A DNA stretch of 34,745 nucleotides, taken from UHGV virus genome UHGV-0163337, one strand, 5' to 3'. Made by a program: the position numbers and the translations under genes. Shown in pieces: positions 3,081 to 10,627 of this stretch (within the stretch, counting starts at the first letter, position 1; each line of letters opens with the position of its first letter). The notes below the pieces were generated by a model. That model saw only the letters and a list, made by a program, of their open reading frames with translations, searched no databases and was not told the DNA's origin. This DNA is from a virus.

Positions 3081-3143
3081 GTAATTAACCAGAGTTTTTA
3101 ACGCACTTAATTGTGCGGGGCTTCTTTTTGCCTGGAGAAAGTC

Positions 3144-3368
3144 ATGCATACAGTTTCTGAAAATCGGTGCGGTAAATACGCATTACTGCTGCAACAGGCC
3201 AGAACCGAAGCACAGGCCGATGCAGCGACGCGCTTTTCTTCTCATCTTGACGCCATGATTCGCCACATCACAAAGGCGGAGTTATCCCGCGTGGAGATAG
3301 TCGAGCTGCTCAGTCAGGAGTCGGAAAAATTTCACAACATCGGATTGTCTCGCGGGGAGGTGCTTTGA
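3144..3368 (+). CDS. hypothetical early protein (P2 orf80 position)
   Basis: ATG 3144 preceded by GGAGAAA; ORF track begins at an upstream alternative start 3111. Confidence 0.55.
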
Positions 3369-3670
3369 TGTCCTGTTCTCGTTCAGTTGTTTTACTGAAC
3401 AATGCCTTAAAAATCGCCGTTATGAAAAATGGCGATTTGTCTCTTATTCAACTTGGTCTTGATAAAGAAAAACGCGAAATAACTGAATCTGTTATCGCGA
3501 TTTATCAGAGTGAATTAAACCTCCTGTCTGATGTGGTCAATTTACTTGTTAAACGCGCTGTATTTCACAAGCAAATTTCCTCCGTGGATGAACTGACGAA
3601 ATTAACGACAGAAATCGCCAGCTATTGCGCTGATGAATTTAAAAAAATGAACGACAAAAGGAACTGGTAA
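3365..3670 (+). CDS. hypothetical early protein (P2 orf81 position)
   Basis: 101-aa ORF; ATGA overlap with upstream ORF stop. Confidence 0.6.
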
Positions 3671-3894
3671 TGCCGGACAACGTAGATTTTATTCAGGAAC
3701 AACAGGCTGAATTACTGGAGCGCCAGATTAACGCGGCAAGGGTAAAACATTGCGGTGCTTCTGCGCTGGTTTGCGAAGAGTGTGACGCGCCAATACCTGC
3801 TGCCCGTCGTGCGGCTTATCCGTCAGCCACGCGTTGTGTTTCCTGTCAGGCAGTCTTTGAAGCAAAAAACAAACATTACCGGAGAACGGCATGA
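3670..3894 (+). CDS. DksA/TraR-type C4 zinc-finger protein (P2 orf82 position)
   Basis: 74 aa; CxxC...CxxC (CEECDAPIP...RCVSCQ) zinc-finger spacing. Confidence 0.7.
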   Translation: MPDNVDFIQEQQAELLERQINAARVKHCGASALVCEECDAPIPAARRAAYPSATRCVSCQAVFEAKNKHYRRTA

Positions 3895-4166
3895 GTATTC
3901 GTATTGAAATTGGCGAACGTTATGTCGTTACCAGTGACAGCTTTCAGTTTATTCTCCACGAGAAAAAGAGAGCGGAAAGCGGTAAAAACGCCGGTCAGGA
4001 ATGGCTGGCGGTGGTTGGTTATTACCCGAAATTAAGCCAGCTCGTTTCCGGCCTGATGCATCACGATATTCTGACCGGAAGCGCAAAATCTTTTGCCGAT
4101 TTAAACGTGCAGGTTGAGCAACTCAGCAGGCGTTGTTCAGAGGCTTTTGGCTCATATGGACGTTAA
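3891..4166 (+). CDS. hypothetical early protein (P2 orf83 position)
   Basis: 91-aa ORF overlapping upstream stop (ATGA) and the 5' end of A. Confidence 0.55.
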   Translation: MSIRIEIGERYVVTSDSFQFILHEKKRAESGKNAGQEWLAVVGYYPKLSQLVSGLMHHDILTGSAKSFADLNVQVEQLSRRCSEAFGSYGR

Positions 4167-6432
4167 AGCCTCCGGGCGTTTTGTCCCTCCGTCAGCATTT
4201 GCCGCAGGCACCGGTAAGACGTTTACCGGTGCTTATGCATGGAACGCGCCACGCGAGGCTGTCGGGCGCGAAAGACCCCTTACACGTGACGAGATGCGTC
4301 AGGTGCAAGGTGTTTTATCCACGATAAATCGCCTGCCTTATTTTTTGCGCTCGCTGTTTACTTCACGCTATGACTACATCCGGCGCAATAAAAGCCCGGT
4401 GCACGGGTTTTATTTCCTCACATCCACTTTTCAGCGTCGTTTATGGCCGCGTATTGAGCGTGTGAATCAGCGCCATGAAATGAACACCGACGCGTCGTTG
4501 CTGTTTCTGGCAGAGCGTGACCACTATGCACGCCTGCCGGGAATGAATGACAAGGAGCTGAAAAAGTTTGCCGCCCGTATCTCATCGCAGCTTTTCATGA
4601 TGTATGAGGAACTCTGCGATGCCTGGGTGGATGCGCATGGCGAAAAAGAATCGCTGTTTACGGATGAGGCGCAGGCTCACCTGTATGGTCATGTTGCTGG
4701 CGCTGCACGTGCTTTCAATATTTCCCCTCTCTACTGGAAAAAATACCGTAAAGGGGAGATGACCACGAGGCAGGCATATTCTGCCATTGCCCGTCTGTTT
4801 AACGATGAGTGGTGGACTCATCAGCTTAAAGGCCAGCGTATGCGTTGGCATGAGGCGTTACTGATTGCTGTCGGGGAGGTAAATAAAGACCGTTCACCTT
4901 ATGCCAGTAAACATGCTATTCGTGATGTGCGTGCGCGCCGCCAGGCAAATCTGGAATTTCTTAAATCGTGTGACCTTGAAAACAGGGAAACCGGCGAACG
5001 CATCGACCTTATCAGTAAGGTGATGGGCAGTATTTCTAATCCAGAAATTCGCCGGATGGAGCTGATGAACACCATCGCCGGAATTGAGCGTTACGCCGCC
5101 GCAGAGGGTGATGTGGGGATGTTTATCACGCTGACCGCGCCGTCAAAGTATCACCCGACACGTCAGGTCGGAAAAGGCGAAAGTAAAACCGTCCAGCTTA
5201 ATCACGGCTGGAACCATGAGGCATTTAATCCAAAGGATGCGCAGCGTTATCTCTGCCGTATCTGGAGCCTGATGCGCACGGCATTCAAGGATAATGATTT
5301 ACAGGCCTACGGTTTGCGTGTCGTTGAGCCACACCACGACGGAACGCCGCACTGGCATATGATGCTTTTTTGTAATCCACGCCAGCGTAACCAGATTATT
5401 GAAATCATGCGTCGCTATGCGCTTAAAGAGGATGGCGACGAAAGAGGAGCCGCGCGAAACCGTTTTCAGGCAAAACACCTTAACCGGGGCGGTGCTGCGG
5501 GGTATATCGCGAAATACATCTCAAAAAACATCGATGGCTATGCACTGGATGGTCAGCTCGATAACGATACCGGCAGACCGCTGAAAGACACTGCTGCGGC
5601 TGTTACCGCATGGGCGTCAACGTGGCGCATCCCACAATTTAAAACGGTTGGTCTGCCGACAATGGGGGCTTACCGTGAACTACGCAAATTGCCTCGCGGC
5701 GTCAGCATTGCTGATGAGTTTGACGAGCGCGTCGAGGCTGCACGCGCCGCCGCAGACAGTGGTGATTTTGCGTTGTATATCAGCGCGCAGGGTGGGCCAA
5801 ATGTCCCGCGCGATTGTCAGACTGTCAGGGTCGCCCGTAGTCCGTCGGATGAAGTTAACGAGTACGAGGAAGAAGTCGAGAGAGTGGTCGGCATTTACGC
5901 GCCGCATCTCGGCGCGCGTCATATTCATATCACCAGAACGACGGACTGGCGCATTGTGCCGAAAGTTCCGGTCGTTGAGCCTTTGACTTTAAAAAGCGGC
6001 ATCGCCGCGCCTCGGAGTCCTGTCAATAACTGTGGAAAGCTCACCGGTGGTGATACTTCGTTACCGGCTCCCACACCTTCTGAGCACGCCGCAGCAGTGC
6101 TTAATCTGGTTGATGACGGTGTTATTGAATGGAATGAACCGGAGGTCGTGAGGGCGCTCAGAGGCGCATTAAAATACGACCTGAGAACGCCAAACCGTCA
6201 GCAAAGAAACGGAAGCCCGTTAAAACCGCATGAAATTGCACCATCGGCCAGACTGACCAGGTCTGAACGATTGCAAATCACCCGTATCCGCGTTGACCTT
6301 GCTCAGAACGGTATCAGGCCGCAGCGATGGGAGCTTGAGGCGCTGGCGCGTGGAGCGACCGTAAATTATGACGGGAAAAAATTCACGTATCCGGTCGCTG
6401 ATGAGTGGCCGGGATTCTCGTTACCCATTTGA
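4156..6432 (+). CDS. A: replication initiation endonuclease A (rolling-circle HUH Rep)
   Basis: ~758 aa from ATG 4156 (ORF track starts at TTG 4114); HUH motif PHWHMMLF and active-site tyrosine motif YIAKYISK; P2 gpA ~761 aa. Confidence 0.93.
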   Translation: MDVKASGRFVPPSAFAAGTGKTFTGAYAWNAPREAVGRERPLTRDEMRQVQGVLSTINRLPYFLRSLFTSRYDYIRRNKSPVHGFYFLTSTFQRRLWPRIERVNQRHEMNTDASLLFLAERDHYARLPGMNDKELKKFAARISSQLFMMYEELCDAWVDAHGEKESLFTDEAQAHLYGHVAGAARAFNISPLYWKKYRKGEMTTRQAYSAIARLFNDEWWTHQLKGQRMRWHEALLIAVGEVNKDRSPYASKHAIRDVRARRQANLEFLKSCDLENRETGERIDLISKVMGSISNPEIRRMELMNTIAGIERYAAAEGDVGMFITLTAPSKYHPTRQVGKGESKTVQLNHGWNHEAFNPKDAQRYLCRIWSLMRTAFKDNDLQAYGLRVVEPHHDGTPHWHMMLFCNPRQRNQIIEIMRRYALKEDGDERGAARNRFQAKHLNRGGAAGYIAKYISKNIDGYALDGQLDNDTGRPLKDTAAAVTAWASTWRIPQFKTVGLPTMGAYRELRKLPRGVSIADEFDERVEAARAAADSGDFALYISAQGGPNVPRDCQTVRVARSPSDEVNEYEEEVERVVGIYAPHLGARHIHITRTTDWRIVPKVPVVEPLTLKSGIAAPRSPVNNCGKLTGGDTSLPAPTPSEHAAAVLNLVDDGVIEWNEPEVVRALRGALKYDLRTPNRQQRNGSPLKPHEIAPSARLTRSERLQITRIRVDLAQNGIRPQRWELEALARGATVNYDGKKFTYPVADEWPGFSLPI

Positions 6433-6648
6433 GTAAAAACACAACGTGATTTGATATGGCATTGAATGGCTTATGCGGAGCAGTTATGGGGCAGCAGAAG
6501 GTCAATAGCATGCTGAATTAGAAGGCTAAATGCTATTGAGTGACTAGCATGTCGGTAAGGACGGCCGTTTGATCCGGGTCATAAAAGGCCATCCATTTAG
6601 TCTAATAAAATCATTGCGGGTAACCTTATGTCGACGCATAATTCGTCT

Positions 6649-6722
6649 TGAGCGAAGTCTTGTCAGTCTTTCATCGTATTGATGATGGGCGCAAAAAAAC
6701 CACCCTGGCAGGTGGTTTTTTT
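6649..6722 (+). ncRNA. candidate small RNA (promoter to terminator, no ORF)
   Basis: TTGCGG (6614-6619), 17-nt spacer, CATAAT (6637-6642); ~74 nt to the intrinsic terminator; 5' end carries the 15-nt TTGAGCGAAGTCTTG (6648-6662) repeated at 6912-6926. Confidence 0.35.
6693..6722. terminator. bidirectional intrinsic terminator
   Basis: A7-CCACC-ctggca-GGTGG-T7: GC stem flanked by A-run and T-run, so hairpin plus U-tract on either strand. Confidence 0.8.
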
Positions 6723-6734
6723 GTTTGAAGCATA

Positions 6735-6848
6735 TTAAAGCATAATGCTGACATTGATATTACTGACGTTTACTGACAAACCACTCGGACTACCGTTTGG
6801 ATAGCCAAAGAGGGCCAGAACGAGAATGCAGTAATAGCATTTCTTCAT
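6735..6848 (-). CDS. small hydrophobic peptide (37 aa), candidate type I toxin-like
   Basis: ATG at 6848 with AGGAGG SD 4 nt upstream; MKKCYYCILVLALFGYPNGSPSGLSVNVSNINVSIML; ends 13 nt before the bidirectional terminator; AT-rich. Confidence 0.4.
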   Translation of the reverse strand: MKKCYYCILVLALFGYPNGSPSGLSVNVSNINVSIML

Positions 6849-7326
6849 ATTGCCTCCTGTAAGTAGAGGGCAACTTCCACCGGTATATGCGCTTCTTAGG
6901 TGGAATGACTTTTGAGCGAAGTCTTGCCCTGAAATAATGCTCTGTTTAAACGCAAAGTGATTTGGCATATCACCGAACAGAGAGCCGGAAAAACACAACA
7001 TATAGTATGTCGTTGTTTCTAGACATACATTCTATGTTGTGTAACAAGGGCTTTGCATTAAACATGTTTGAGATTTTATTGATGTAGCTCAAAGTAAAAA
7101 ACAGAGACTACGGATGATAAGGTCTTGAAAGCAATGTAAATTTTTTAAAGTTGCCAATTGCTTAAAAATGTACAGTTGCGGTATGGCGTACTTAAAAAGC
7201 TATGCATGCAACAAGTGAATGTTTTTGCATGCGTTGGGGATGTCCGTTCAGGCTGCGTGCGGTCAGGACTGGTGCGGATCCATAGTATCTATGCAACTGC
7301 ATTAAAACCGCCCCGTGAAGCGGGCG

Positions 7327-7345
7327 GGCGAGGCGGGGAAAGCAC
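7327..7345. other. cos: cos site (19-nt cohesive end sequence, P2-type)
   Basis: GGCGAGGCGGGGAAAGCAC matches the P2 cohesive end as I recall it; GC-rich block between A and Q as expected in a prophage. Confidence 0.7.
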
Positions 7346-7499
7346 TGCGCGCCAAACGATGTCGCTGGCTTGCAGCTACCCGGTTGAAATTCTTATTTTT
7401 TTGTTGCATTATTCTTAGCGCACCAGCGATTCGCTTGGTATGCGGCAGTCAACAACATTAAATTGTCAGTTTTTGCTTTTACAAAAAAGCGTCCACTAT

Positions 7500-7660
7500 G
7501 GACCTATCAGCGAGGCCCCACCGTCGTCAACTACGATGGTGCCGTAGCCGACGACATTACGTACGGTCGAAAGATAGCAGAGGCTGTTGCTGGCAATTGT
7601 TGATGTAAGCATCTCTGCTGTTCCACCCTTGAGTATGGGAAGACCGTACGTAACTTTGAA
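7500..7660 (+). ncRNA. candidate structured leader / retron msr-msd-like ncRNA upstream of RT
   Basis: Hairpin 7523-7555 (13-bp imperfect stem); nested inverted repeats TACGTACGGTC (7558-7568)/GACCGTACGTA (7642-7652) and AGCAGAG (7576-7582)/CTCTGCT (7613-7619); boundaries not determined. Confidence 0.3.
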
Positions 7661-8861
7661 TTTGAATGGTATGTTTATGGATAAATTTAAACCATACAGC
7701 AAATCCAATGCTCCTATCACAACACTTGAAAAGTTGTCAAAGGCTTTATCGATTTCTGTTGAAGAGCTTAAAGCTATTGCAGAACTACCATTAGATGAGA
7801 AATATACTCTAAAAGAAATTCCCAAAATTGACGGAAGCAAACGGATTGTCTACTCCCTGCATCCTAAAATGAGATTATTACAGAGTAGAATTAATAAACG
7901 TATTTTTAAGGAATTGGTTGTTTTTCCTTCATTTTTGTTTGGTTCAGTCCCCAGTAAAAATGATGTTTTAAATTCTAACGTCAAGCGTGACTATGTTTCA
8001 TGCGCAAAGGCTCATTGTGGAGCAAAAACAGTTCTCAAGGTGGATATAAGTAATTTTTTCGATAATATCCATAGAGATCTGGTTAGGAGCGTGTTTGAGG
8101 AGATATTGCATATTAAGGATGAGGCTCTTGAATACTTGGTGGATATATGTACTAAGGATGATTTTGTCGTACAGGGGGCCTTAACATCAAGCTATATAGC
8201 AACTTTGTGTTTATTCGCTGTTGAAGGGGATGTGGTAAGACGTGCGCAGAGGAAAGGACTTGTTTATACGCGTTTGGTAGATGATATTACCGTGTCATCT
8301 AAAATAAGTAATTATGATTTTTCTCAAATGCAAAGCCATATAGAGAGGATGCTTTCTGAGCATGACTTGCCGATAAATAAGCACAAAACTAAAATATTTC
8401 ACTGTTCATCTGAACCTATAAAAGTACATGGTTTAAGAGTTGACTATGACTCACCTCGACTACCATCCGATGAAGTCAAAAGAATCAGGGCATCTATACA
8501 TAATTTGAAATTACTGGCGGCAAAAAATAACACAAAAACAAGTGTTGCATACAGAAAAGAATTCAATAGATGTATGGGGAGAGTGAATAAGCTTGGCCGT
8601 GTTGGGCATGAAAAATATGAATCATTCAAGAAACAGTTGCAGGCAATAAAACCGATGCCATCTAAAAGAGATGTTGCTGTGATTGATGCAGCTATAAAAA
8701 GTTTAGAGTTGTCGTATTCGAAAGGTAATCAAAATAAACATTGGTATAAAAGAAAATATGATTTGACGAGATATAAGATGATTATTCTTACTCGCTCTGA
8801 ATCATTTAAAGAAAAACTGGAGTGTTTTAAATCTAGATTGGCATCTTTAAAACCATTATGA
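7635..8861 (+). CDS. retron-type reverse transcriptase
   Basis: RT catalytic box YTRLVDDITV; retron-like AKAH (NAxxH position), VDISNFFDN and KVHGL (VTG position); first ATG 7635; alternatives TTG 7587 or ATG 7671; AT-rich. Confidence 0.8.
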   Translation: MGRPYVTLNLNGMFMDKFKPYSKSNAPITTLEKLSKALSISVEELKAIAELPLDEKYTLKEIPKIDGSKRIVYSLHPKMRLLQSRINKRIFKELVVFPSFLFGSVPSKNDVLNSNVKRDYVSCAKAHCGAKTVLKVDISNFFDNIHRDLVRSVFEEILHIKDEALEYLVDICTKDDFVVQGALTSSYIATLCLFAVEGDVVRRAQRKGLVYTRLVDDITVSSKISNYDFSQMQSHIERMLSEHDLPINKHKTKIFHCSSEPIKVHGLRVDYDSPRLPSDEVKRIRASIHNLKLLAAKNNTKTSVAYRKEFNRCMGRVNKLGRVGHEKYESFKKQLQAIKPMPSKRDVAVIDAAIKSLELSYSKGNQNKHWYKRKYDLTRYKMIILTRSESFKEKLECFKSRLASLKPL

Positions 8862-9565
8862 ATGCAAATATTAGACTTCTCAAATATATTGTCGGTGTGT
8901 CGTCAGCTCTTTTTTTGATTTTTTCGCTAATTTCTCTTTTTGAAACTATTCAGAATGAAAAGCTATATGAGCGTGATATATGCTTCGATAGCCAGTGCTT
9001 AAAATTTTTTGCGGAAAAAACATCTGGTATAGTAATGTATTTTCAGGCGTTTGGATGGCTTATAACAACTTTTGTTACCGTTTTTGGTGTTATGATTGCT
9101 TTGATGACATATAACGCTGGAGTTAAAAATAATAATAATAGTAATTACACTAGTCATCTGACGATGTTTAGAGAATTTGCAAGTGCTGAGTTAACTAAAA
9201 GAAGTAGCATCTATCCAGAGAAAGTTAATTTTTTTAGATGGTATAGGGTTATGTTCCCTGAAGCGCAAGGCGGTGATATATCTGTTTCGAGAGATTATCT
9301 AGAAATAATATCTAGAATCAAATGTGTTATTGAGGAAGCCAATGCACATATTACAGAGGAAAGTAAAGACTATAAATATAAAACTCATCAGAGAAAAATG
9401 ATGGCTGTTTTGGATGAAATCGGTATATCGATTAGTAATGGGCCCAAAAATATTTTTATCGAGGTTGAGAGTCAAATTTTGGATTATATCGATACTATTA
9501 ATTTGTCATTTTGTCATTCCTCATCAGTGATAGAATTAAGTAGAGTAAAAAGGAAGTATATATAG
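8858..9565 (+). CDS. 2-TM membrane protein, putative effector partnered with the RT
   Basis: ATGA overlap with RT stop; 235 aa; hydrophobic helices ~10-28 and ~58-84, then ~150-aa soluble domain; AT-rich. Confidence 0.7.
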   Translation: MNANIRLLKYIVGVSSALFLIFSLISLFETIQNEKLYERDICFDSQCLKFFAEKTSGIVMYFQAFGWLITTFVTVFGVMIALMTYNAGVKNNNNSNYTSHLTMFREFASAELTKRSSIYPEKVNFFRWYRVMFPEAQGGDISVSRDYLEIISRIKCVIEEANAHITEESKDYKYKTHQRKMMAVLDEIGISISNGPKNIFIEVESQILDYIDTINLSFCHSSSVIELSRVKRKYI

Positions 9566-9568
9566 TTA

Positions 9569-9595
9569 AGTTGGCGGGGTTGCATTCCGCCAACT
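9569..9595. terminator. bidirectional terminator between convergent 2-TM gene and Q
   Basis: AGTTGGCGG-ggttgcatt-CCGCCAACT hairpin followed by TTTATATATTT. Confidence 0.7.
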
Positions 9596-9607
9596 TTATA
9601 TATTTAC

Positions 9608-10627
9608 TTATAAGTTATAATCAAGGAATTTTATGACTTCCATATCTAACCATTCATTTATTGACTTTATTCTCTCCTGTAATGGAATGAGTTCATTGCG
9701 GACAAAGACCTTTGCCACTTTTTCAATATCTCCTAGTGACCCGACATTCTCCGGCTTACCGCCCATCAACTGAAAGGGGATGCGGTGTGCGTCCAGGAGA
9801 TCTGCGGCGCTGACTTTTTTGATATTAAAAAAATCGTCCTTCGTCGCCACTTCACTGAGGGGGATAATTTTAATGCCGTCGGCTTTCCCCTGTGGGGCAT
9901 AGAGAAACAGGTTTTTAAAGTTGTTGCGGCCTTTCGACTTCACCATGTTTTCGCGGAGCATTTCGATATCGTTGCGATCCTGCACGGCATCAGTGACGTA
10001 CATGATATATCCGGCATGAGCGCCGTTTTCGTAATACTTGCGGCGGAACAGCGTGGCCGACTCATTCAGCCAGGCAGAATTAAGGGCGCTGAGATATTCC
10101 GGCAGACCGTACAGCTCCTGATTAATATCCGGCTCCAGCAGGTGAAACACGGAGCCGGGCGTGAAGGCTGTCGGCTCGTTGAAGGACGGCACCCACCAGT
10201 AAACATCCTCCTCCACGCCACGGCGGGTATATTTTGCCGGTGAGGTTTCCAGTCTGATGACCTTACCGGTGGTGCTGTAACGCTTTTCCAGAAACGCATT
10301 ACCGAACACCAGAAAATCCAGCACAAAGCGGCTGAAATCCTGCTGGGAAAGCCACGGATGCGGGATAAATGTCGAGGCCAGAATATTGCGTTTGACGTAA
10401 ATCGGCGAGCTGTGATGCACGGCAGCACGCAGGCTTTTCGCCAGACCGGTAAAGCTGACCGGCGGCTCATACCATCTGCCGTTACTGATGCACTCGACGT
10501 AATCCAGAATGTCACGGCGGTCGAGTACCGGCACCGGCTCACCAAAGGTGAATGCCTCCATTTTCGGGGCGCTGGCGGTCATTTTTTTTGCCGCAGGTTG
10601 CGGTGTTTTCCCTTTTTTCTTGCTCAT
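9608..10627 (-). CDS. Q: portal protein Q
   Basis: 339 aa (P2 gpQ ~344); overlaps P stop; position at left end next to cos. Confidence 0.9.
   Translation of the reverse strand: MSKKKGKTPQPAAKKMTASAPKMEAFTFGEPVPVLDRRDILDYVECISNGRWYEPPVSFTGLAKSLRAAVHHSSPIYVKRNILASTFIPHPWLSQQDFSRFVLDFLVFGNAFLEKRYSTTGKVIRLETSPAKYTRRGVEEDVYWWVPSFNEPTAFTPGSVFHLLEPDINQELYGLPEYLSALNSAWLNESATLFRRKYYENGAHAGYIMYVTDAVQDRNDIEMLRENMVKSKGRNNFKNLFLYAPQGKADGIKIIPLSEVATKDDFFNIKKVSAADLLDAHRIPFQLMGGKPENVGSLGDIEKVAKVFVRNELIPLQERIKSINEWLDMEVIKFLDYNL

What the first reader, a model, noticed from the sequence alone, without database searches (positions are those of the whole stretch)
7346..7660. Structured non-coding leader upstream of the RT: nested inverted repeats, candidate msr/msd
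The ~290 nt between cos and the first RT ATG has no credible ORF. It contains a 13-bp imperfect hairpin (7523-7555) and a larger element with a perfect 11-bp outer inverted repeat (TACGTACGGTC 7558-7568 / GACCGTACGTA 7642-7652) plus a 7-bp inner one (AGCAGAG / CTCTGCT). Retron RTs need a structured ncRNA immediately upstream, so this is the expected place. I could not identify canonical a1/a2 repeats or the priming guanosine, so boundaries are unknown. The same structure could instead be a translational operator that occludes the RT start.
Basis: partly seen in the sequence, partly recalled or inferred. Interest (0 to 1): 0.6.

Follow-up and report, generated by a model that had tools for sequence, protein, structure and literature searches.

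The report
Retron Ec48 non-coding RNA leader
The structured stretch in front of the reverse transcriptase is the non-coding RNA gene of the long-known anti-phage retron Ec48, carried here by a P2-like prophage; the nested inverted repeats are conserved helices of that RNA, so the finding is real but mostly already known.

Summary
There is a perfect 12-bp inverted repeat (7557-7568/7642-7653), an inner 7-9 bp stem and the hairpin 7523-7555. The downstream genes are a type IV retron RT and the Ec48-family 2TM effector. The leader is identical, apart from text-scanning errors in the held file, to the published Retron-Eco6 (Ec48) ncRNA, which is listed as 7398-7583. The published RT-DNA starts opposite C7564 and runs through hairpin 7523-7555, so the small hairpin is the msd. 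The large nested element is not the msd. In 29 type IV loci from Enterobacterales, Pseudomonas, Vibrionaceae and Betaproteobacteria it is kept as two covarying helices (P2, P3) plus an invariant mini-hairpin. A third covarying long-range helix, P1 (7440-7469 with 7590-7612), crosses them as a pseudoknot. P1 looks like the retron a2/a1 pair and ends at a conserved G (7469). A positionally conserved promoter puts the RNA start near 7419. Two points are unresolved. The conserved a1 strand lies 25 nt of template beyond the published cDNA 5' end. The listed ncRNA ends before a1, P3R and P2R. A translational-operator reading is not supported. The element is already known; the 3' domain and the offset are modestly interesting.

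The parts
7384..7412 (+). Retron promoter: -35 TTGAAA (7384-7389), 17-nt spacer, -10 CATTAT (7407-7412). The inferred RNA start is about 7419.
   Evidence: Consensus scan. In nearly all 29 homologous loci a -10-like hexamer ends 12-15 nt before the central GCG of hairpin H0, often with a good -35. The start site itself is inferred, not measured.
7422..7439 (+). H0, the 5' hairpin of the ncRNA (AGCG-loop-CGCU core).
   Evidence: 96% of cells paired and 4 of 6 pairs with compensatory change (helix 1). Also predicted by RNAalifold.
7440..7469 (+). 5' strand of long-range helix P1 (segments 7440-7443, 7449-7455, 7463-7469). It is the candidate a2 and ends at conserved G7469, the candidate branching guanosine.
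   Evidence: The P1 duplex is -14 to -31 kcal/mol in all 29 loci and beats all 100 shuffles in 25 of them. A G at or next to the 3' end of this strand is present in all 29 loci. Its role as the branch point is inferred.
7475..7503 (+). H1 (7475-7490) and H2 (7491-7503), msr-type hairpins.
   Evidence: Both have entirely different sequence but the same hairpins in SC477. H1 is 95% paired. Both are predicted by RNAalifold.
7510..7522 (+). Conserved single-stranded CGAGGCCCCACC. This is the region where the published cDNA ends (about 7517-7520).
   Evidence: The GAGG...CACC motif is kept across the loci. The 48-nt length is from the literature quoted, where the 3' end was found 3 nt shorter. The end coordinate is computed from the start at 7564.
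7523..7555 (+). H3, the msd hairpin (template of the msDNA-Ec48 stem-loop).
   Evidence: The census RT-DNA, reverse-complemented, maps to 7405-7564 with its 5' end at template C7564. The editing donor site '130;136' falls inside this hairpin. Every homologue has a 30-45 nt hairpin of different sequence here.
7557..7568 (+). P2 left arm (TTACGTACGGTC). Its first 8 nt are the first template bases of the published cDNA.
   Evidence: (helix 8: 88.8% paired, 12 of 12 pairs with compensatory change).
7574..7582 (+). P3 left arm (the core AGCAGAG is 7576-7582).
   Evidence: helix 9: 96% paired, 6 of 7 pairs covary; the helix extends to 7574-7582/7613-7621.
7583..7589 (+). Conserved linker GCUGUUG, preceded by G7582. 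G7583 is invariant (29 of 29). This is the template immediately 5' of the a1 strand.
   Evidence: Column frequencies and alignments.
7590..7612 (+). 3' strand of P1, the candidate a1. It lies in the loop closed by P3, so P1 and P2/P3 form a pseudoknot.
   Evidence: -22.2 kcal/mol duplex; helices 2, 3, 5.
7613..7621 (+). P3 right arm (the core CTCTGCT is 7613-7619).
7626..7639 (+). Mini-hairpin CCC-UUGAGUAU-GGG with invariant C7628, U7629 and A7635-U7636-G7637. It is a candidate protein-recognition element.
   Evidence: 100% paired, with CCC/GGG, CUC/GAG and UCC/GGA variants. Invariant columns are listed. The recognition role is inferred.
7642..7653 (+). P2 right arm (GACCGTACGTAA), followed by the conserved CUUUG (7654-7658), where conservation ends.
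   Evidence: (the diverged E. coli match ends at 7658).
7677..8861 (+). Retron RT, type IV / clade 3 (394 aa; RefSeq homologues start here).
   Evidence: PADLOC RT_IV 6e-177, Pfam RVT_1, RefSeq annotation of the 99% identical locus.
8858..9565 (+). Ec48-family 2TM effector. A terminator-like hairpin follows at 9568-9596.
   Evidence: PADLOC 2TM_IV 5e-85, NCBIfam retron_Ec48_2TM 227 bits, terminator scan.

Best explanation
The interval is the msr-msd (non-coding RNA) gene of retron Ec48 (Retron-Eco6, type IV), sitting in the cos-portal hotspot of a P2-like prophage.

Shown by sequence and comparison:
- The RNA unit runs from about 7419 to 7658 on the + strand.
- It contains a 5' hairpin (H0), two small hairpins (H1, H2), a conserved single-stranded CACC tract, and the variable hairpin 7523-7555, which is the template of the published msDNA.
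- The loop closed by P3 pairs with the 5' region (P1: 7440-7469 with 7590-7612), giving a pseudoknot.

Inferred:
- P1 is the retron's a2/a1 priming helix and G7469 is the branching guanosine.
- The RT, made from the ORF just downstream, binds this fold (probably through the invariant mini-hairpin and the GG at 7582-7583). It primes from the 2'-OH of the G and copies the RNA leftwards through P3L, P2L and the msd hairpin to the CACC stop.
- P2 and P3 clamp the first 25-33 nt of template to RNA lying 3' of a1. Reverse transcription followed by RNase H must therefore undo them and free the 3' domain.

Why the stable 45-48-nt DNA begins at C7564 rather than next to a1 (7589) is not explained by the sequence.
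For: Family identity:
- RT_IV 6e-177 and 2TM_IV 5e-85; retron_Ec48_2TM 227 bits.
- RefSeq calls the 99% identical genes 'retron Ec48 family'.
- The census Eco6 ncRNA maps to 7398-7583, and its RT-DNA starts at template C7564.

Conservation stronger than in the protein:
- In E. coli SC477 the RT is 54% identical in amino acids, but 7511-7658 is 82% identical in DNA, with compensatory changes in P2, P3, H1 and H2.

Covariation in 29 loci:
- 82% of cells are paired against 68% in shuffles.
- 48 of 56 pairs have changes on both sides; 0 of 500 shuffles reach any measure; versions slid by 1-3 columns give 36-45% paired.
- P2 is 88.8% paired (12/12 pairs covary), P3 96% (6/7), the mini-hairpin 100%, P1c 94%, P1b 91%.
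- RNAalifold independently returns H0, H1, H2, P2, P3 and the mini-hairpin.

P1:
- The P1 duplex is -14 to -31 kcal/mol in every locus, against shuffle means of -6 to -14.
- A G at the 3' end of the a2 strand is present in all 29 loci.

Strand and transcript:
- Frequent G-U pairs (for example UG:10 at columns 54/232 and GU:7 at 196/303) fit only the + strand.
- The promoter sits at a conserved distance.
- The distance from the ncRNA start to the RT start is 250-278 nt in all full-length loci.
Against: - The published cDNA 5' end (C7564) is 25 template nucleotides away from the a1 strand (7590). In canonical retrons the cDNA starts next to a1.
- Palka et al. reported no 5'-end heterogeneity for Eco6, even without RNase H1.
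- The census lists an ncRNA that ends at 7583, which lacks a1, P3R and P2R. An editing vector with a donor in the msd still gave 0.66% editing. I could not find out whether that construct kept the native downstream leader.
- In a few loci (L031, L034) the P1 helix can extend 1-2 bp beyond the conserved G.
- P1a is only 62% paired in the MAFFT alignment because of register shifts.
- The branch point, the RNA ends and the pseudoknot have not been measured here. Mao et al. 1997, which mapped them, was not readable.
Confidence: 0.72

Rival explanations
1. Canonical layout on the big repeat. The P2 arms are a2 (7557-7568) and a1 (7642-7653), G7569 is the branching G, and the interior (about 7594-7641) is the msd.
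For: This is a perfect 12-bp inverted repeat with a G directly after the left arm. That is the textbook retron pattern, and the 48 nt before the right arm would match the name Ec48.
Against: The base after the left arm is G in only 5 of 29 homologues and A in 21. The published RT-DNA and the editing donor site map to hairpin 7523-7555, on the other side of the left arm. The interior is the most sequence-conserved part and has no long variable hairpin, whereas 7523-7555 does.
Confidence: 0.03
2. Permuted priming. The branching G is G7646 in the right arm of P2. P3 plus the inner 4 bp of P2 act as a1/a2, cDNA starts at A7563/C7564, and P1 only holds the two RNA halves together.
For: It explains the published cDNA 5' end to the nucleotide: C7564 pairs with G7646. 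It also places the invariant mini-hairpin next to the primer.
Against: The column of G7646 is G in 6 of 29 loci and A in 20. The G would be buried in the middle of a 12-bp helix. The RNA joined to the DNA would be the mRNA leader, with the branch near its 3' end. From my own recollection, no such oddity has been reported for Ec48; I could not check this.
Confidence: 0.08
3. The boundaries as listed in the census (7398-7583) are complete. On that reading a2 is 7398-7417 and G7418 is the branch (UUAG*CG, the same context as in Ec86, which I recall and did not check here). a1 is 7565-7583, and 7584-7658 is unrelated leader.
For: a1 would then abut the published cDNA start. Some editing was obtained with that listed ncRNA.
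Against: The duplex is only -5.8 kcal/mol, worse than shuffled versions (z = +2.0). The equivalent segments show no complementarity beyond shuffles in any of 29 loci (mean z = +0.19). 7398-7417 overlaps the spacer and -10 of the positionally conserved promoter, so it should not be transcribed natively. This reading also leaves the strongly covarying 7584-7658 unexplained.
Confidence: 0.07
4. P2/P3 is mainly a cis-regulator of the downstream genes: a translational operator, or an attenuator or processing signal that sets the ncRNA-to-RT mRNA ratio.
For: It lies directly before the RT gene, at a fixed distance. P2R is followed by a U-rich tract in many loci, for example UUUUUA in Pseudomonas. 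In sister type VI retrons a structured RNA represses translation of an effector until msDNA accumulates.
Against: The RT start (7677) and its ribosome-binding region lie outside every conserved helix. The invariant AUG at 7635 is in frame with the RT in only 3 of 29 loci; elsewhere it opens ORFs of 2-84 aa with no conserved length. No terminator was called at 7642-7665. No repeat of the template sequence is found near the RT or effector starts. This role could still be a second function of the same helices.
Confidence: 0.1

Closest known systems
Retron-Eco6 (Ec48) msr-msd, type IV retron (Mao et al. 1997; Millman et al. 2020; Mestre et al. 2020)
   Same: It is the same element. The leader is identical to the printed Eco6 ncRNA apart from text-scanning errors. 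It has the same RT and 2TM effector families and the same P2-type prophage setting as phage pro147 and 57 complete E. coli genomes.
   Different: The ncRNA as listed ends at 7583. The conserved, covarying RNA continues to 7658 and includes the only conserved long-range (a1-like) strand. I could not check whether the type IV consensus structure of Mestre et al. already shows P1/P2/P3, because figures are not held.
Canonical retron ncRNA, e.g. Retron-Eco1 (Ec86)
   Same: It lies upstream of the RT on the same strand. It has a terminal-type long-range helix ending in a conserved G, small msr hairpins, one long variable msd hairpin, and a cDNA 3' end that pairs with a conserved RNA tract.
   Different: About 33 nt (P2L, P3L, linker) separate the msd hairpin from the a1 strand. 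Another 46 nt of conserved structure follow a1 and pair back across it as a pseudoknot. The published cDNA start is 25 nt from a1 instead of adjacent to it.
Type VI retron hybrid RNA (Retron-Vpa2 hyRNA; Zhang et al. 2025 preprint)
   Same: It belongs to the sister RT clade (clade 3) and is also triggered through RecBCD or recombination proteins. It is also a large multi-arm RNA in which a distal 3' segment folds back on the msr-msd arm in an a1/a2-like helix. Its msDNA is seen in a form truncated by 23 nt at the 5' end unless RecBCD is inhibited.
   Different: No effector ORF is embedded in the type IV RNA. No direct repeat was found that would let the msDNA open a riboregulator. Ec48 makes abundant msDNA without a trigger.

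Membership tests
Type IV retron (Retron-Eco6 / Ec48 family) | Reverse transcriptase of the type IV (clade 3) retron lineage | tested here: met
   PADLOC RT_IV, E = 6.3e-177, full-length match. The next best are RT_V at 3e-63 and RT_VI at 5e-54. Pfam RVT_1 also matches.
Type IV retron (Retron-Eco6 / Ec48 family) | Two-transmembrane effector gene immediately downstream of, or overlapping, the RT gene | tested here: met
   ORF 8858-9565 overlaps the RT stop by 4 nt. It scores PADLOC 2TM_IV 5e-85 and NCBIfam retron_Ec48_2TM equivalog 227.5 bits against a cut-off of 65.
Type IV retron (Retron-Eco6 / Ec48 family) | msr-msd ncRNA directly upstream of the RT, containing the Ec48 msd | tested here: met
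   The census Eco6 ncRNA and RT-DNA strings align to 7398-7583 and 7405-7564; the only differences are scanning errors. The homologous RNA is found upstream of the RT in 34 of 47 type IV loci by profile search.
Type IV retron (Retron-Eco6 / Ec48 family) | Production of msDNA branched on a specific guanosine | not testable with these tools
   Production is published for Eco6 (quoted). The branch position could not be retrieved because Mao 1997 is not held. G7469 is proposed from conservation only.
Canonical retron msr-msd architecture | Inverted repeats a2/a1 closing the ncRNA, with the branching G directly 3' of a2 | tested here: inconclusive
   P1 (7440-7469 / 7590-7612) covaries and ends at a G present in all 29 loci. 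However, it does not close the RNA: 46 nt of conserved structure follow a1. The more obvious repeat, P2, fails, because a G follows its left arm in only 5 of 29 loci.
Canonical retron msr-msd architecture | cDNA synthesis starts at the template base adjacent to a1 | tested here: not met
   The published cDNA 5' end is opposite C7564. The conserved a1 strand begins at 7590, so 25 template nucleotides lie between them.
Translational operator occluding a start codon | The ribosome-binding site or start codon of the regulated gene lies inside the conserved helix | tested here: not met
   The last conserved pair is at 7653 and the RT start at 7677. The AUG inside the structure is in the RT frame in only 3 of 29 loci.
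Any Rfam RNA family | Covariance-model match at or near the gathering score | tested here: not met
   There is no match in 7346-7660 except a chance mir-9 hit on the minus strand (E = 1.2). The other weak hits are outside 7346-7660, the best ones on the terminator at 6638-6762.

The most novel reading that the evidence does not exclude
In this reading the primary Ec48 cDNA is about 73 nt long. It is primed from G7469 next to the conserved a1 strand and copies 7589 down to about 7517. The familiar 45-48-nt msDNA is then what remains after the 5' 25 nt are removed while RecBCD, or a nuclease that depends on it, is active. These 25 nt are the complement of the linker, P3L and the inner end of P2L.

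When a phage inhibits RecBCD, the full-length form would persist. That form, or the accompanying permanent opening of the P2/P3 clamp and release of the 3' domain, would be the signal that arms the 2TM effector.

This would give the 'guardian of RecBCD' retron a concrete molecular sensor. It would parallel the 23-nt 5' extension seen for the type VI Retron-Vpa2 msDNA only with Gam or in a recB mutant.
Probability: 0.22. Interest if true: 0.7.

Novelty: already known. Interest (0 to 1): 0.38.

Why it matters
Ec48 is the retron for which the idea of guarding RecBCD was proposed. How RecBCD status reaches the msDNA or the membrane effector is still open.

Two practical points follow from the comparison.

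First, the conserved RNA unit of type IV retrons is about 240 nt and includes a pseudoknotted 3' domain. That domain lies beyond the ncRNA boundary listed for Eco6. The retron census found no RT-DNA from its new clade 3 constructs and itself suggested that their ncRNA may be non-canonical. Using the full unit may be what is needed to make these retrons work as DNA-writing tools.

Second, the 25-nt gap between the conserved priming helix and the published cDNA start is a specific, testable clue to processing of the msDNA 5' end.

Tried and rejected
- Rfam scan of 6400-9700 at E <= 10: nothing relevant.
- Full-text search for the repeat arms and other leader strings: no relevant paper. Mao et al. 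1997 is not held. The supplements of Palka 2022, Simon 2019 and Zhang 2025 contain no Eco6 ncRNA sequence or branch position.
- G7569 or G7646 as the branching G: rejected on conservation.
- An a2 upstream of 7418 pairing with 7565-7589: rejected, since it is no better than shuffles in 29 loci and overlaps the promoter.
- An alternative pairing of 7443-7450 with 7582-7589 (-10.2 kcal/mol): by eye it is not kept in SC477 or Pseudomonas.
- A type VI-like riboregulator, meaning a direct repeat of the template near the RT or effector start: only chance 7-mers were found.
- The invariant AUG at 7635 as the true RT start or as a conserved leader peptide: rejected. It does explain why some gene callers give a 404-408 aa RT.
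- The minus-strand 'terminator' at 7503-7491 is simply hairpin H2 read from the other strand.
- H3 could not be scored by column-wise covariation, because its length varies (36% paired). It was therefore checked by folding each locus separately.

Full report
**Context**

The window is a P2-like prophage. It encodes replication protein gpA (4114-6432, Pfam Phage_GPA), followed by a cos-type region. Then come a reverse transcriptase (7677-8861) and a 235-aa protein (8858-9565) on the + strand, and the portal gene (9608-10627) on the minus strand.

The RT matches PADLOC RT_IV at 6e-177 and the second protein matches 2TM_IV at 5e-85. The second protein also scores 227 bits on NCBIfam retron_Ec48_2TM, cut-off 65. 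The 2.3-kb cassette is 99.3-99.4% identical to one in Escherichia phage pro147 and in 57 of 5,426 complete E. coli genomes, where RefSeq names the effector 'retron Ec48 family'. This is therefore retron Ec48 (Retron-Eco6), the type IV retron that Millman et al. described as a guardian of RecBCD.

**The observation**

All three repeats exist as described.
- The outer repeat is a perfect 12-mer (7557-7568/7642-7653).
- The inner one is a perfect 7-mer (7576-7582/7613-7619).
- The hairpin 7523-7555 has 13 positions at 85% complementarity.

The 101-nt element folds at -42.1 kcal/mol with z = -5.4. Rfam has nothing for it.

**What is published for this sequence**

The retron census supplement prints the Retron-Eco6 ncRNA and RT-DNA. 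Aligned to the window, the ncRNA is 7398-7583. The reverse-complemented RT-DNA is 7405-7564, with its 5' end at template C7564. The only differences are scanning errors. The long 3' tail of that RT-DNA string probably reflects pooled read-through products; this is my inference.

The editing donor site (130;136) lies inside hairpin 7523-7555. Palka et al. report a product of about 48 nt, 3 nt shorter at the 3' end than first described, with a tight 5' end.

So the small hairpin is the msd. The msDNA covers about 7517/7520 to 7564. The large nested element lies mostly outside the listed ncRNA.

**Comparative evidence**

Three E. coli genomes carry a diverged copy in a P4-like satellite next to tRNA-Arg. 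The RT there is 54% identical, yet 7511-7658 is 82% identical in DNA. There are G-C to U-A and G-C to A-U compensations in the two stems, and two upstream hairpins have completely exchanged sequence.

A scan of one genome per species returned 47 type IV RT loci. A profile of the leader detects the same RNA in 34 of them. It starts 250-278 nt before the RT gene in every full-length case.

On a MAFFT alignment of 29 non-redundant loci I scored a structure written from the window:
- 82% of cells pair, against 68% after shuffling.
- 48 of 56 pairs show changes on both sides.
- No shuffle out of 500 reaches any measure, and versions slid by 1-3 columns give 36-45% paired.
In Pseudomonas it reads UAGGUUUGGCCA/UGGCCAAAUCUA.
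- The inner stem (P3) is 96% paired.
- A 3-bp mini-hairpin (7626-7639) is 100% paired, with CCC/GGG, CUC/GAG and UCC/GGA variants, and its loop has invariant bases.

RNAalifold, which knows nothing of my reading, returns H0, H1, H2, P2, an extended P3 and the mini-hairpin. Frequent G-U pairs fix the strand as +.

**A third helix**

The 5' region 7440-7469 pairs with 7590-7612, which is the loop closed by P3, in three segments.
- Window: AUGC/GCAU, UCAACAA/UUGUUGA, UUGUCAG/CUGGCAA.
- Pseudomonas: GUGC/GCAU, UCGAU/AUCGA, AGAUCCUGG/CCAGCGAUCU.
- Aliivibrio: UUGC/GCAA, AUCGA/UCGAU, AAUAUUUG/CAAAUAUU.

The duplex is -14 to -31 kcal/mol in all 29 loci and beats every one of 100 shuffles in 25 of them.

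This helix (P1) crosses P2/P3, so the RNA is a pseudoknot, unless the two folds alternate. Its 5' strand ends in a G in every locus. This is the layout of a retron a2 strand with its branching guanosine, and I take G7469 as the best candidate. That is an inference.

**Transcript start**

The best promoter is TTGAAA-17-CATTAT (7384-7412). A -10-like hexamer sits at the same distance from hairpin H0 in nearly all loci, often with a strong -35. The RNA should therefore start near 7419.

This matters because the 5' 20 nt of the listed ncRNA (7398-7417) then lie in the promoter. Their pairing with 7565-7589 is weak (-5.8 kcal/mol) and is no better than shuffles in any locus. G7569 and G7646 would be the priming G under the two readings that use the big repeat as a1/a2. 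They are G in only 5 and 6 of 29 loci respectively.

**What remains unexplained**

If P1 is a2/a1, cDNA synthesis should begin at 7589, yet the published DNA begins at 7564, 25 nt further on. I found no conserved pairing that would bring a conserved G next to 7564.

One precedent is suggestive. In the sister type VI Retron-Vpa2, the msDNA is seen as a 63-nt form, and it gains 23 nt at its 5' end when Gam is expressed or recB is deleted. Ec48 is itself triggered by RecBCD inhibition. A 73-nt primary cDNA trimmed at the 5' end is therefore possible.

Against it, Palka et al. saw no 5' heterogeneity for Eco6 in a RecBCD-proficient host, even without RNase H1. I rate this reading at about one in five.

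**Translational operator**

The RT start used by RefSeq (7677) and its ribosome-binding region lie 17-24 nt beyond the last conserved pair. The invariant AUG at 7635 is in the RT frame in 3 of 29 loci; elsewhere it opens ORFs of 2-84 aa with no conserved length. No repeat of the template occurs near the RT or effector starts. A regulatory side-role for release of the 3' domain cannot be excluded.

**Verdict**

The finding is real and correctly interpreted as the retron ncRNA, and it belongs to a retron known since 1997.

What the tools add is the following:
- a boundary for the conserved RNA unit (about 7419-7658);
- a specific 25-nt discrepancy with the published cDNA start.

I could not see the figures of Mestre et al. 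2020, so I cannot say how much of this fold is already drawn there.

Noticed in passing
window 7635-7637: An AUG inside the mini-hairpin loop is invariant in all 29 type IV loci. In this E. coli version it happens to be in frame with the RT. This explains the 404-408 aa RT models in protein databases, compared with the 394 aa RefSeq model. In 26 of 29 loci it opens only a 2-84 aa ORF.
   Followed up: yes
window 6735-7001 (minus strand): An 88-aa ORF lies between gpA and cos, at the other P2 hotspot. It has no hit in Pfam, PADLOC, PHROGs or NCBIfam. In E. coli PSS-11 (L001 1290-2837) the same position holds a 515-aa 'RNA-directed DNA polymerase', so that prophage carries two RT systems flanking cos.
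   Followed up: partly
window 6638-6762: A strong bidirectional terminator-like hairpin (AAAAAAACCACCCUGGCAGGUGGUUUUUUU) lies after gpA. It produces the weak Rfam RNAI and Phe_leader hits. It would insulate the retron from upstream phage transcription.
   Followed up: no
L002 (E. coli SC477) 3133-7446: A 54%-identical type IV retron with the same ncRNA fold sits in a P4-like satellite (ogr/delta, DUF927 primase, integrase, tRNA-Arg) instead of a P2 prophage. The same cassette, with its own promoter, therefore moves between helper-phage and satellite hotspots.
   Followed up: partly
window 7582-7583 and 7566: G7583 is invariant (29/29) and G7582 nearly so (28/29), at the 3' end of P3L and the start of the linker (motif GGCWG). 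G7566 is G in 27 of 29 loci. No role could be assigned. Priming from G7583 would copy the a1 strand, which does not fit the published DNA.
   Followed up: partly
window 7557-7562 / 7648-7654 compared with the census Retron-Sen1 ncRNA: The ends of the type V Retron-Sen1 (Se72) ncRNA printed in the census (UGGUUACGU...ACGUAACCA) share UUACGU / ACGUAAC with the two arms of P2 here. This could be chance, or a hint that P2 corresponds to what is called a1/a2 in type V.
   Followed up: no
window 9568-9596: A 13-bp terminator-like hairpin directly after the 2TM gene closes the retron operon before the convergent portal gene.
   Followed up: no
window 7576-7589: In enteric loci P3L can instead pair with the linker (AGCAG-AGG-CUGUU; AACAG/CUGUU in SC477). 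This is a possible local alternative to P3, but it is not kept in Pseudomonas.
   Followed up: partly
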